From Phoronis australis (Eukaryota > Animalia > Phoronida): 64,000 nt of DNA. Location: the NCBI GenBank assembly GCA_002633005.1, contig NMRA01000242.1:124001-188000 (forward strand), given 5' to 3'. Below, piece by piece: positions 35,201-41,200 of the stretch. The position numbers and the translations under genes were made by a program. Under the pieces are notes generated by a model. The model was not told where the DNA came from and ran no database searches. It saw only the letters and a list, made by a program, of their open reading frames with translations. Position 1 is the first letter of the stretch; each line of letters opens with the position of its first letter.

Positions 35201-38200
35201 AAAATCGGTACGAATTTACTAGAACGCATGTGCTACAAGTGTGCAGAAAATCGTTGACTTCCGGTTAGATGGCGGAAATATTGGACGTGGCGCATGCGCA
35301 CCCCGAAATATGGCTAAAAACGTTTTCTCCTGTAGAGGGCGCATTTGCAAACCAATCAATTTCAAACTGGTCAAGTGTTTGTTGAGTTTAATAAGCTTTT
35401 ATAAAAAATTATTGGACCGGAAGTCACTTTCAAGATGGCGGCTGTGGCGCATGATCACACGGTTTCAATCGCTCTGGTGTCGCATTTTTAACGGGAAGAG
35501 TAAATGACGTGAATTTTTGCATTTGGATTCCTTGAAGTATGGCCTTTCAAAAAGTCTGCGAGAGCGTATTTCTCAGACTTACCGTTTTCGAGTTATTTGA
35601 CTTTGAATTTCAAAAAAAAACGGCAAATTTTCAATTTTCTCGAAAATTTTTTGGATTTTTGCCAAACTACCACTTTAGATAGAATTTTGAACGGGCTTTC
35701 AGAAGATATTTTTCATTTTGCGCTACGACGTCTACTTTTTGAATTATTCGAGATTTTCGGATACAGTTGTTCCTTCAGTCACCTATGCAAGCACGCAGCT
35801 GGCTGGCTTTGTTTTGGTTATGCCTAGTTGACCCAGACTGACCCAGCCAGCACTGTCCTACTGTAAAGCATGGCTCGTCCGTCATGTTGCGCCATCTATT
35901 GTTCTTTATTGTAGTTGGTTGTATGCTCTCTATTTGATTTCTTCGCTAGTCACATGAATGTTATCGTGTTTGCCAAACTACCACTTTAGATAGAGTTTTG
36001 ACCGGGCTTTCAGAAGATATTTTCCATTTTGCGCAACGACGTCTACTTTTTGAATTATTCGAGATTTTCAGATAACGTTATTCCTTCGGTCACCTATGCA
36101 AGCATGCAGCTGGCTGGCTTTCAGTTCACTTTGCTTTGGTTATGCGTAGTTGACCAGACTGACCCAGCCAGCACTGTCCTACTGTAGACTGGACCGTCAA
36201 GTTGCGCCATCTATTGTACTTTATTGTAGTTGATTGTATGCTCTCTATTGGATTTCTTCGCTAGTCACACGAATGTTATCGTGTTATTCATAATTGCCGT
36301 CTTGATCGTCATGATTGTCGTTGTCTCCCTCATCGTCGTCTTTTCGATTAGTTCCGCCAAGTGTCGCTCCTCCGAGCGCTCTCGTATTAATCCTTTGAGC
36401 AGTTTTGTGATTAGAGAGATGTACAACAAAATATGGACTAAAATAATGAAACAGAGCCAGGAGATGGTGCAAAATTCTTCAAATCCACCCTAAAATGAGA
36501 AGGCATAGTCTTCTGCTTAATAGACACCTATCAAGTATATCCAACTTCATAAAAATACAGCAATACAGCAAGGAACTCCAAAAATACAGAGGCAAACATA
36601 AAAACAAAATTGCCACTAGGGGGCCACGGCAATAATCTGATAGCTTCAAAACTTGTCGTAATCTGTCGTCACCTTCAGAGGAACACATCTGAAAATAAGT
36701 TCTTGCAAAGGGTTCAGGAGATATAGCAGCAGACTTGATTGGATACACAGAGACGACCAGACAGAGATTACAGCAATATGTACCTACATAAGCATATGTA
36801 GGAACATAAAAAATTATGACACGTTCTAAAGTCTTCATTTGAGCACAACAATAAAATATGCAAGGTTTGCACTGAACAAATGAAGCAGCAGCCCCCTCTA
36901 TGGAAATGTTCAATCAACTACTGTCACTGACTGTAATAAATAACAAAAAGGTAATGCATCCAGAAGTTCAATTATCAGGAAATTTGATAACAAGCTTTTA
37001 TAGCTCCTGTTGCACTGATAAGGAAGTGGGACACCTTGTTAAGATAAAGTTCCAGTTAATACATTTATCATACATCACAACCTGATAATAAATAATGCCT
37101 AGCATACACACATCACATGGATACCATACAACATCGGTGGGTCAAACCCCGATAGGACGTCCTGTGATCGCAATAGAAAGGTGGGCGTCAATACCAGTAC
37201 CTCGAGCTGAGATAAAACTGTAGAGCCAGTAAATATGCGCTGACTCACACAATCTGTGTCTCATTGAACTAGTACCAGATGATATAAGATATCAAAGATG
37301 ATGAGCTAGTTCCAAACAACAGACGCATCACTTGCAGGCTTGTAATTATCCGCCAATCAAGGGATAATAAAGCACAAAAAGCGACAATGAGCGTTCTTCT
37401 TGACAGAATCAAAGTAGAACACATCATGTATGTAGTACTTACACTACACAATTTTAAAATGCAACAGTGCTCCCACACAAATTCTACAGCAACTCACAAT
37501 GCACAGAAGGCTAACCTCAAACTTGTGCATGACAACTATAAGCTCCAACACTGATAACTATAAGCTCCAACACTGTCTTTAGATGTGTGGACAACACATA
37601 CAGAAGTAAAACGCATATGTTCATGTCAATGACTTCCAAGAGTCCTATTTCAGAACACTTGACATGACAGGTAACAGCAAGAGTTGTATAGAGAACAAGA
37701 GTCGCTGGTAGAGTTCACTTACATTCTGTGGCTCTTTATTCAAACACAATTGCACAAAATCCTTAAACACCTTGCTATGGTTGCCGGCCAGCTGAGGCGG
37801 GTTATTTTTGGGAATGAGGAAGAGCACCCTCATGGGGTGCAGGCTGGAGTTGGGCGGTTCACCCTCCGCCAGCTCGATGGCCGTGATGCCTAGCGACCAA
37901 ATGTCGGCCTGTTGGAATAAAATAGGGGTCAAGGAATGAGTCACGCGGTGGATCAAACAGATATCCATCACTCACTCTGTGAACATGGCAACGTTTGCCG
38001 AGCGTGCGTGACATGCGTACCAAATCACACAAACAAACAGGTGAATTCCAAATACTCATCACTTGTAATGCTTCATTTCATGAGACTTTGCATGCAGTCA
38101 GAGGACTTTCACATTATAGTCACATGACTTCCATTTCAAGTCATGTGATATCAGACACACGCACGCTCACACGGCCACTGTTGACAGAGTGAGCAGACAG

Positions 38201-41200
38201 ATGGTCACTGGTGCTGCATGTCCCCACACTTACGTTATTGGGCTCCTTATTTAAACATATTTCAACAAATTCCTTAAAAGGCTTTGAAAACTTGGCGCCC
38301 TCTAGTGTCGGCGGCGGGTTCCTAGGGATGAGGAACAGCACCTTCATAGGGTTCTGGTCAGCATACGGTGGCTCACCCTTGGCTAGTTCTATGGCTGTTA
38401 TGCCTAAACTCCATATATCCGCCTAGAGATGAAAGGAACAAGGTAGTGGATTAGCTGACAACACCTGCTCTAGGGTGTGTATGAGTGTGTTATGCAGAAG
38501 GAAGGAAGCCATGCATTTCCTGGAGACTGAAACAGGTGAGAGTAATGCAGAGCTGTACAGGACACAAGCACAGGTGAGAGTGATGCAGAGCTGTACAGGA
38601 CAAAAGCACAGGTGAGTGTGAAGAGTAGAAGAGGACACAAGCACAAAGTAGGAACTGGACATTAATGATAGTAAGTCTCAGTGCACATAATCGGAAACTT
38701 TAGATTTTTCCTTTTCTAACATTGCAACAGTAAACCTGGGACATACATTTGGAAAGAGGCCTACACACCACTAATGTTTGGTGTATTGATGGCAATTAAG
38801 CTAAAAAAGTAAGATGGAATATTAAGTGGTATCTTTGAGGAACATGCTCTGTCTGCCTCTCACACAACTTAACTTCCTCTGCACATTTTGGGGAGTCACA
38901 CATACCATTAAAACTTTAATTGTAGCTCTAAAAGTAGGCCCGTGGCCTGCATTTGGAAAATGTTCTGGCTTAAAGCACACTGGGGGTACATCTAAGAAAG
39001 CCTCTTTGCAAAAATTCCCAAAAATGAAGACATGAACAAAAATGAAGAGAAGTAACTACTTAAATGTTGAAGTAAGAACAAGGAGTGACTCAGTGCAGTT
39101 CCAGTCAGACATAATTTTACCAAGTTAGACAACGTTAAGTCAATAAGCGATAAATGTCAAAAGAAATCACAATGTAAAGATTAAAAAGACATTTAGAGAA
39201 GAGCTAATGGAAAGAAGTGGCGACACCTGTTGATAGGGAATGACAAATATTGTGCACACAGCAATATAATTAGAAGCAAAATCAGAGAAGAAAGCCAAAA
39301 GGACATGACAAGACAAAGACAGGCAACAATGGTGATTCCTAGCACACCATAACCAAGAAGCAGTCCAAATGTTTTCACAAATAAAGTTCATAATTACAAA
39401 CAAATGAATGCACGAGAGAACGAGGCAAATAACCAGATTTCTACTGCGATTTCTTTAAAACTGTCAGATATGAATTCATTCTAAAACAGGAAATTCAAAG
39501 TAACTATTAAACCCAAATGAAAACTTTCAATTCACTGAAATCTGGGAAAACAAGGGCAATTAACTAAGAAATTTGTGAAAACATGTTTGCATTTCATGGC
39601 TGTTTTGAAAACCAGTTCCTGAAAACATCAACAGGTGGTGTTAGAGTCTCCTTCTACCTGTCAAACCTAAGAGAAGACTACACAGTTAGTAAAGCTGCAT
39701 TAGGAGCTTTCATTGTGCAATGCCCACTAATGCCCTCAAGTTGACATGGAGACAGTTAACTTTTAAAGCACAGGAGGCAGATAAAAGTGGTAGTGGTGAC
39801 ACAAGGCACAATTTTGATTTAGAAGCCAATTGGCAGTACACTCAGAGGCCTCAGCCAACTACAGATGTTTGCGACTCTCCTCAGAGGCCTCGCCCAACTA
39901 GATGCCTATGACTCCAGACTCCCCCTAGTGGTACAAAGGCCTCGCCCAACTACAAATGACTGTGACTAACCCCAGGGGCACACTAAGAAGTCTTGCCTAA
40001 CTACAGGTGTTTGCCACCCCCACAGGGCTAAACTTAGAGGCCTCTTCCAACTAGACACCTGCGACGCCCCCCTACAGGCTACAGAAGTCTCCAAATCCCT
40101 TCAGCTCAGTCACCACACTCTCCCCTCTATTACAATTTCCTCTTTTTTGTGCATTAAACTGGACTTCACAGAAATTTACACACATTTTTTATATGAAACT
40201 CAAGCCTTTCCCCAAGGCTTGTTAAACAAATGCCCTTACTCAAAGGTCATGGAACCGGTTCAAATGCCGCCTATGACATGTGCCATCAAACATGGTTGAC
40301 GTGTTGCTATGTCCATCTCGTGACTAGACAGGTTGGTCACGGCATGTGTATCTATACATGACATGAGTGGAGATACAATATTACTACATGACACTATGTG
40401 TGGAGATACAATATTACTACATGACACTATGTGTGGAGATACAATATTACTACATGACACTATGTGTGGAGATACAATATTACAACATGACACTATGTGT
40501 TACATTTGACACATCCTGCCTGTCACGGGGCAAAATTAGAGTTTTGCAGTAAAAGTAAACTGTCCCCTCATCACTTAAGCACATTAGTGGTGGATCCAGA
40601 AGGGAGGGCAGCTGACATTCAGTCATACAAATCTCCCAAGGAGGTTAGTGTGCAGTGAAGCAATTAATAATAGTGCAGGGCTCACAATCAAGGTATCACA
40701 TTACCAATACCAATATAATAAACAATATGAATGTCCTCATACTATAACATACTTATAACAATGACAACTGAGGTTAAAATCAAGTCTACTTATGCTTTTG
40801 CATTTGTAGGAATTGTACATTATTCACACAAACATCAACTGTGTGTGACTAATTAAGGCCTAGAGCAACAGACGAACCTTATGGTCTATGTATCACTTAA
40901 TTGAACTAAACATACAAAATTTAATAAAATAAGACGCATATCTAAAGAAACATTGAGAACCATTATGTAATGTAATTTAATAGAAAACTGTAGAAAGTTA
41001 ACATATTGAATAAAACAGGTAATGACCTTTGAGTCGTATGCTGACTGTTTGATGACCTCAGGAGCCATCCAGAATGGAGTGCCCACAAACGTCTGTCGTT
41101 TATTGGTTGTGTTGGTCAGTTGCCCCGCAACTCCAAAATCTGCAAGTTTGACTTCACCCGTTTCTGATAATAAGACATTGGCAGCTGCAAGACAAAGATA

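What the first reader, a model, noticed from the sequence alone, without database searches (positions are those of the whole stretch)
37958..38210. Nested long stem-loop occupying most of the 325-nt intron between the duplicated exons
Seen, as + strand coordinates: ctcactctgtgaacatggc (37971-37989) pairs with gccactgttgacagagtgag (38174-38193; one mismatch, one bulge). Inside it, gagcgtgcgtg (38000-38010) pairs perfectly with cacgcacgctc (38158-38168). Inside that is a perfect 11-bp hairpin, tcacatgactt (38120-38130) / aagtcatgtga (38138-38148). Outside, ccatc (37965-37969) pairs with gatgg (38200-38204). There are no TSD or TIR hallmarks of a MITE. Folding would leave only about 29 nt after the exon A donor and about 56 nt before the exon B acceptor. 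Both exons are multiples of 3, so NMD cannot remove double-inclusion products and another mechanism is needed. Inference: the structure brings the A donor close to the B branch point (steric exclusion), as described for some insect mutually exclusive exon pairs.
Basis: partly seen in the sequence, partly recalled or inferred. Interest (0 to 1): 0.8.

Follow-up and report, generated by a model that had tools for sequence, protein, structure and literature searches.

The report
RNA stem between alternative kinase exons
An animal STK25-like kinase gene has two duplicated exons that its transcripts use as alternatives, and the short intron between them holds an unusually strong self-complementary stretch that is predicted to fold into a long RNA stem and likely helps stop the two exons from being joined, although the predicted spacing is only borderline for that job.

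Summary
The stem is real. About 40 bp pair 38202-38158 with 38010-37963 on the minus strand, around an 11-bp hairpin. No shuffle matches the end-to-end duplex (0 of 1000), and it beats all 1247 sliding windows. The intron separates duplicated exons A (189 nt) and B (186 nt) of a GCKIII/STK25-like kinase. RNA reads join upstream-A (33), upstream-B (16) and A-downstream (22), the pattern of alternative exon use. No A-B or B-downstream joint is among the 15 rows shown, and 28 rows were hidden. Lingula has the same A-then-B pair. Folding leaves 40-79 nt between A's donor and B's candidate branch points, and 64-79 nt for the best one. That is at or above the ~50-60 nt steric limit and largely within the range where yeast 'zipper' stems promote splicing. 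I found no competing docking site, U12 donor or convincing MITE hallmark. No orthologous intron could be obtained, so covariation is untested. Best reading: a splicing-control stem that helps enforce exclusion (0.4). Rivals are FGFR2-type approximation and a neutral relic.

The parts
38234..38422 (-). Alternative exon A (189 nt, 63 aa) of a GCKIII/STK24-25-26-like kinase, covering the C-lobe segment from the DIWS motif to CLNKEP. It carries the unusual YADQNP motif shared with Lingula.
   Evidence: spliced to the upstream exon (13/13/7 reads) and the downstream exon (9/8/5 reads)
37723..37908 (-). Alternative exon B (186 nt, 62 aa), of the ancestral LHP type
   Evidence: spliced directly to the upstream exon (4/6/6 reads); 66% nt identity to A, 27 of 44 conserved codons differ silently
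37909..38233 (-). 325-nt GT-AG intron between A and B
38158..38202 (-). 5' arm of the predicted intron-spanning stem (helices of 7, 11, 4, 4, 3 and 11 bp)
   Evidence: -57 kcal/mol duplex; 42 pairs, 4 of them G.U
37963..38010 (-). 3' arm of the predicted intron-spanning stem
38120..38148 (-). Perfect 11-bp inner hairpin with a 7-nt loop
38091..38096 (-). UGCAUG (Rbfox-type motif; name recalled) in the looped-out region; function untested
   Evidence: 24 such motifs on the minus strand of the window
37929..37953 (-). Four candidate branch adenosines for exon B at 37953, 37941, 37937 and 37929. The last is the best consensus match; none is mapped.
38204..38210 (-). Weak branch-point-like heptamer with its A at 38205, 29 nt from A's donor and just outside the stem (rival 'hidden distal branch point' model)
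   Evidence: 4 of 7 consensus matches
41027..41184 (-). Upstream constitutive exon (DFG to APE, activation loop)
33239..33375 (-). Downstream constitutive exon (starts RPTAK); its 3' end is inferred from the donor sequence

Best explanation
Exons A and B of this GCKIII kinase gene are used as alternatives, and the complementary arms in the intron between them are predicted to form a roughly 40-bp pre-mRNA stem that likely helps block A-to-B joining by shrinking and crowding the space between A's donor and B's branch point. Shown by calls: the arms, the in-frame exon pair, and the joints upstream-A, upstream-B and A-downstream. Predicted: the fold. Inferred: that the stem is under selection; that U1 on A's donor and U2 on B's branch site cannot both engage productively across 40-79 free nucleotides plus a bulky helix; and that whichever exon is defined first therefore wins. 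The two kinase isoforms would differ in the loop and helix after the EPP motif, a substrate- and partner-binding surface (role recalled from general kinase knowledge).
For: The strongest end-to-end duplex of 1247 windows lies in exactly this intron. The other four introns tested in the gene lack one (z +1.6 to -1.5, against -5.1). The intron has stayed at 325 nt while its neighbours are 0.8-4.3 kb and carry repeats. The duplex is 6 kcal/mol stronger on the transcribed strand, with 4 G.U pairs. Both exons are used, and each can skip the other. Depth of A plus B roughly matches the flanking exons in two of three runs (X3: about 27 against 22-28; X4: 15-21 against 15-20; X5: 12-15 against 21-24). 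The other standard safeguards fail: NMD (in frame), competing dockers and U2/U12 incompatibility. With the 7-bp outer helix, three of four candidate branch points fall at or under 56 nt.
Against: The best branch-point match (-21) is 64-79 nt away after folding, above the ~50-60 nt limits quoted in PMC7969005 and PMC13762713. In exon context none of the three branch points tested falls under 50 nt (medians 55, 71, 79). Yeast stems with 42-85 nt linkers fit the A complex and mostly promote splicing (PMC12350175), and a human intron-spanning duplex in NISCH promotes inclusion (PMC12519161). The flank pairing that would shorten the gap is no better than shuffles (248 of 300 and 262 of 300 as good). 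No orthologous intron was available, so there is no covariation evidence (0 of 73 metagenome loci hold the pair). Absence of A-B joining is not established: 28 joint rows were hidden and the B-downstream joint was not shown either. One Lingula gene model joins A to B (P0003).
Confidence: 0.4

Rival explanations
1. FGFR2-type approximation. The stem is functional, but it sets the A:B ratio by bringing protein-binding elements next to one exon or looping out a motif such as the UGCAUG at 38091-38096. Exclusion itself is enforced by splicing factors.
For: Same architecture as FGFR2, where IAS2 and ISAR form a stem and work with Fox-bound gcaug elements (passage in PMC2471395). There is a UGCAUG in the loop and another about 90 nt upstream of A. 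The geometry is too loose for a clean steric block. The upstream-A to upstream-B read ratio differs between runs (13:4, 13:6, 7:6; small numbers).
Against: 24 UGCAUG motifs occur on this strand of the window, so one or two nearby is unremarkable. No conserved element could be tested.
Confidence: 0.22
2. Neutral relic. The arms are a decayed small inverted-repeat element or a local inversion-duplication that happens to sit in this intron, and exclusion works by other means.
For: About 40-bp imperfect arms around about 150 nt resemble a decayed MITE. A 6-bp direct repeat flanks the stem. The gene is rich in repeats. No conservation data exist.
Against: The direct repeat is at chance level, and the arms are not symmetric to it. 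There is no second copy in the window. The intron draws no opposite-strand reads, unlike the repeat at 34.3-36.7 kb. The position is exactly where a safeguard is needed, and G.U pairs favour the RNA strand.
Confidence: 0.2
3. Hidden distal branch point. B uses a branch adenosine just outside the 5' arm (38205, 29 nt from A's donor), and the stem hides every AG between it and B's acceptor. This would give an OGDH-like steric block with a folded AG-exclusion zone.
For: All 11 AGs between 38205 and the acceptor lie within the stem-enclosed region, and the 54-nt tail has none. Human OGDH uses branch points at +25 to +41 for this purpose (PMC7969005).
Against: The heptamer is weak (4 of 7). A full-consensus branch site with a pyrimidine tract sits at -21. 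An AG-free tail of this length has about a 10% chance anyway (my arithmetic).
Confidence: 0.07
4. Zipper stem. The structure promotes removal of the A-B intron, so a minor in-frame A+B isoform is made.
For: Linkers of 52-79 nt meet the yeast zipper-stem criteria (PMC12350175). Exon B depth in run X3 (up to about 14) is high for only 4 upstream-B joints. One Lingula model joins A and B.
Against: No A-B joint is among the 15 rows shown, while A-downstream has 22 reads. All 14 full-length Lingula isoforms carry one copy only. A duplicated C-lobe segment would probably break the kinase fold (inference).
Confidence: 0.06

Closest known systems
FGFR2 exons IIIb/IIIc, IAS2-ISAR stem (passage and reference titles in PMC2471395)
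   Same: A stem formed by two intronic elements that regulates a mutually exclusive exon pair, with Fox-type motifs nearby. That the FGFR2 stem lies within the intervening intron is recalled.
   Different: Here the stem spans most of a 325-nt intron and both exons preserve frame. In FGFR2 the stem approximates control elements and double inclusion is out of frame (recalled). No function has been tested here.
Steric exclusion by a short donor-to-branch-point distance: human OGDH exons 4a/4b (PMC7969005, passages and one section read); Dscam exon 17 (PMC3917985, title and one citing sentence only)
   Same: A short intervening intron between duplicated exons, with U1 and U2 proposed to clash under about 50 nt.
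   Different: There the branch point is linearly close to the donor. Here it is about 280-305 nt away in sequence and would be brought close only by folding, to 40-79 nt.
Yeast zipper stems (PMC12350175, passages read)
   Same: [quoted passage not shown]
   Different: Zipper stems occur in constitutive introns and mostly promote splicing. Here the intron should not be spliced as a unit.
Docking-site/selector competing pairings (Dscam exon 6, srp exon 4; PMC4691838 and PMC6071210, passages read)
   Same: Long intronic duplexes next to tandem duplicated exons.
   Different: Those duplexes join different introns and loop out an exon. Here both arms are in one intron, no exon is looped out, and no competing partner was found.
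Lingula anatina GCKIII (XP_013417845.1 and isoforms; XP_013379253.1)
   Same: Same exon boundaries, the same YADQNP motif in exon A, and the same A-then-B order.
   Different: All 14 full-length Lingula isoforms use A. B appears only in one partial model that joins A to B. The Lingula intron could not be read.

Membership tests
Mutually exclusive exon pair from tandem duplication | Two homologous, same-phase exons in tandem, each with splice sites | tested here: met
Mutually exclusive exon pair from tandem duplication | Each exon is spliced in while the other is skipped | tested here: met
   Upstream-A 33 reads, upstream-B 16 reads (skips A), A-downstream 22 reads (skips B) in 3 runs; the B-downstream joint was not among the rows shown
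Mutually exclusive exon pair from tandem duplication | The two exons are not included together | tested here: inconclusive
   No A-B row among 15 shown, 28 hidden; depths roughly additive in two of three runs
Steric-exclusion pairs (OGDH type) | Used branch point within about 50-60 nt of the upstream donor | tested here: inconclusive
   Linear distance not met for the proximal candidates; folded distance 40-79 nt depending on register and branch point; branch point not mapped
Docking-site/selector systems | One element pairs competitively with partners in other introns | tested here: not met
   11 query segments against both flanking introns: 21 of 22 best duplexes no stronger than the best shuffled-query null, one exceeds it by 1.7 kcal/mol against only 5 shuffles
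U2/U12 incompatibility (JNK type; recalled) | U12-type donor upstream and U12-type acceptors on the alternative exons | tested here: not met
   B's acceptor has a U12-like branch nonamer at 37936 (3 on the strand), but the upstream donor is not U12-type, no U12 donor motif lies in 33000-41300, and 0 of 31 homologous donors are U12-like (41 counted by the script, 10 of them intron-less joins)
FGFR2-type approximation stems | The stem can be replaced by deleting stem plus loop, and it acts through protein-binding elements | not testable with these tools
   Needs a minigene
MITE | Terminal inverted repeats with a target-site duplication | tested here: inconclusive
   6-bp flanking direct repeat at chance level, arms not flush with it
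MITE | Many dispersed copies | tested here: inconclusive
   No second copy in 64 kb and no repeat-like read pile-up; whole genome not held
Conserved functional RNA structure | Covariation across orthologues | not testable with these tools
   No orthologous intron obtained
GCKIII (STK24/25/26) kinases | Best sequence matches are STK25, STK24 and MST4, with the kinase exons in order and a C-terminal match to the homologues' conserved tail | tested here: met

The most novel reading that the evidence does not exclude
An 'anti-zipper': a 325-nt intron made unspliceable by its own fold. An intron-spanning stem shrinks the donor-to-branch distance below the spliceosome's minimum (or hides all AGs behind a distal branch point) and so enforces mutual exclusion of an exon pair in a GCKIII kinase, a pair shared with the brachiopod Lingula and not described before.
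Probability: 0.3. Interest if true: 0.7.

Novelty: new variant of a known kind. Interest (0 to 1): 0.42.

Why it matters
How in-frame duplicated exons avoid being joined is unexplained for many pairs. If the stem works sterically, it adds a structural route to a mechanism documented, in the papers I could read, only for linearly close branch points. It would also show that the same intron-spanning fold can promote or block splicing depending on a few nucleotides of linker. The 325-nt intron is small enough for a direct minigene test. Separately, the gene shows an alternative C-lobe segment in a GCKIII kinase, shared with Lingula and not found in three literature searches. Stems near mutually exclusive exons are themselves a known theme, so without the functional test this is a good candidate, not a discovery.

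Tried and rejected
Competing docking sites: none above the null. U2/U12 incompatibility: rejected despite a U12-like branch nonamer at B's acceptor. Outer flank pairing that would reach the donor: no better than shuffles. Rfam: one chance hit, E 4.2. Orthologous introns: an A-specific pattern found 0 metagenome loci. An exon-end pattern found 73 loci, none with the A/B pair; 28 of them hold both flanking exons, and none is similar to the intron. A search with exon A plus its intron read-through gave 113 new proteins, none A-type. A tree of 26 exons was unresolved: one origin of the two A exons was neither shown nor rejected (2% of bootstrap trees, p-AU 0.37). The whole genome is not held. A closer view of the A-B and B-downstream joints was not obtained, so the level of double inclusion stays open. 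In one search the accessibility lines used -34 and -30 in place of -33 and -29; those lines are not used here. The Dscam exon 17 paper is not held. Literature: three searches for steric exclusion through a stem and three for GCKIII or brachiopod exclusive exons found no such report, but subscription journals and supplementary exon tables were not searched.
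Full report
Setting. The finding lies on the minus strand, in an animal gene for a GCKIII (STK24/25/26-like) Ste20 kinase. The best solved-structure matches for both exons are STK25, STK24 and MST4, and the kinase exons run in order from about 45.4 kb down to 33.2 kb. 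One kinase exon is present twice: A at 38422-38234 (189 nt) and B at 37908-37723 (186 nt). They are separated by a 325-nt GT-AG intron. A and B are 66% identical in DNA, and 27 of their 44 conserved codons differ silently, so the duplication is old and both copies have been kept intact.

The observation. On the transcribed strand they form a nearly continuous stem of about 40 bp (38202-38158 with 38010-37963) that closes a 147-nt region holding a perfect 11-bp hairpin. The main helices have probabilities of 0.94-0.99 in three folding contexts. The whole intron folds at z -2.8 (1 of 100 shuffles). The end-to-end duplex is at z -5.4 (0 of 1000), and it is stronger than all 1247 sliding windows of the 64 kb. 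The other four introns tested in the gene show nothing similar. The duplex is -57 kcal/mol on the transcribed strand and -51 on the other, with 4 G.U pairs, a modest sign that it matters as RNA. Rfam has no real match. The main one leaves 31 and 54 nt, and the firm core leaves 39 and 61 nt.

Are the exons alternatives? Raw RNA reads from three runs of one study, plus one contig set, were laid on 33100-41300. They match the exons closely, with one fixed difference at 38369 among the rows shown, so they come from the same or a very close species. Joints: upstream exon to A 13/13/7 reads, upstream exon to B 4/6/6, and A to the downstream exon 9/8/5. Each exon can therefore skip the other. No A-B joint is among the 15 rows shown, but neither is B-downstream, and 28 rows were hidden. 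Exon depths estimated from the bins are roughly additive in X3 and X4 and fall short of the flanks in X5. In X3, exon B is deeper (up to about 14) than its 4 upstream joints suggest. Alternative use is shown; strict exclusion is likely but not proven.

Age of the pair. Among 245 homologues fetched, the QN of exon A's YADQNP motif occurs in 6, all from Lingula anatina. One partial Lingula model contains an A-type exon followed by a B-type exon (P0003), while all 14 full-length Lingula isoforms use A. The shared derived motif and order suggest one old duplication, and suggest this animal is a brachiopod or a relative (inference). A 62-column tree neither shows nor rejects a single origin of the A exons. 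Molluscs, a nemertean, an annelid and arthropods among the hits show only the B type. None of 73 metagenome loci holds the pair, including 28 with both flanking exons. No orthologous intron was obtained, so covariation is untested.

Mechanism. A+B would be in frame without a stop, so NMD is no safeguard. Neither arm, nor the loop or flanks, has a convincing partner in the 2.6-kb upstream or 4.3-kb downstream intron, which argues against a docking-site/selector switch. B's acceptor carries a U12-like branch nonamer, but there is no U12 donor in the region or in 31 homologous donors, and reads join B to an ordinary donor. Four branch-point candidates lie in the AG-free tail, at -45, -33, -29 and -21, and the last is the best match. 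The free linker from donor to stem to branch point is 40/52/56/64 nt with the outer helix and 55/67/71/79 nt without it. In exon context, with the U1 and U2 sites held open, the medians are 55, 71 and 79 nt for the three tested. In the isolated intron further pairing brings the linker to 13-40 nt, but shuffled flanks do as well or better in 248 of 300 and 262 of 300 trials, so that is no evidence. The steric limit is given as about 50 nt in PMC7969005 (passages and section 29 read) and 60 nt in PMC13762713 (passages). Yeast zipper stems with 42-85 nt of linker were modelled as compatible with the A complex and mostly promote splicing (PMC12350175, passages). A human intron-spanning duplex in NISCH also promotes inclusion (PMC12519161, passages). 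The geometry is therefore borderline, and the sign of the effect cannot be read from the fold.

I still rank 'helps block A-B joining' first (0.4). The strongest long-range duplex in 64 kb sits in the one intron that must not be spliced as a unit, that intron has stayed short, and the other standard safeguards are absent. The rivals are FGFR2-type approximation of control elements (0.22; PMC2471395, one passage; a UGCAUG lies in the loop), a neutral inverted-repeat relic (0.2; chance-level 6-bp flanking repeat; no copy in the window), a distal branch point at +29 with all later AGs hidden by the stem (0.07), and a splicing-promoting zipper (0.06).

Comparison and novelty. RNA stems at mutually exclusive exons are a known theme (PMC4691838, PMC6071210, PMC11802352, PMC12962786, PMC9013439: passages only). 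I saw its title and one citing sentence, and I recall that its steric block is linear. Searches found no report of exclusion through stem-shortening of the intervening intron, and none of exclusive exons in GCKIII kinases. Subscription papers and supplementary exon lists were not covered. Earlier scan notes show other stems near duplicated exons in other genomes and nothing at this place or for this sequence.

Verdict. The structure is real and well above chance, and the exon pair is real and probably ancient. The mechanism is plausible but has neither conservation nor favourable geometry behind it. Interest 0.42; new variant of a known kind.

Noticed in passing
window 43201-44505: A 652-nt block, including the kinase exon starting ETKLW, occurs twice (99.4% identical) on either side of a single N at 43853. 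It is probably an assembly artefact at a contig join, not a second exon pair.
   Followed up: partly
L065:1768-2749 (minus strand): An unnamed animal GCKIII locus has the neighbouring activation-loop exon duplicated in tandem (665-nt intron, no end-to-end stem). C. elegans gck-1 isoforms also alternate at this exon. GCKIII genes appear to have gained alternative kinase exons more than once.
   Followed up: partly
window 37928-37936 (minus strand): A U12-like branch-site nonamer sits at -28 to -20 of exon B's acceptor, one of only 3 on the strand, although no U12 donor exists nearby. It may be just a strong U2 branch site, or a relic.
   Followed up: partly
window 34300-36700: A composite repeat in the downstream intron draws hundreds of diverged RNA reads on both strands and has internal duplications of about 310-320 nt and no long ORF. 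It is a likely non-autonomous mobile element.
   Followed up: partly
window 37475-37785: Low-depth contigs of run X2 cover the end of exon B and the start of the downstream intron, which suggests pre-mRNA or retention after B; read-through would stop after 25 codons.
   Followed up: no
window 38178-38202 and 37970-37975 (minus strand): The 5' arm reads like a pyrimidine tract ending in CAG, and the 3' arm contains a donor-like GUGAGU. The stem would mask both ends of a possible 202-nt pseudo-exon.
   Followed up: no
window 30866-45903: The gene's introns hold many short tandem arrays with periods of 22-49 nt.
   Followed up: no
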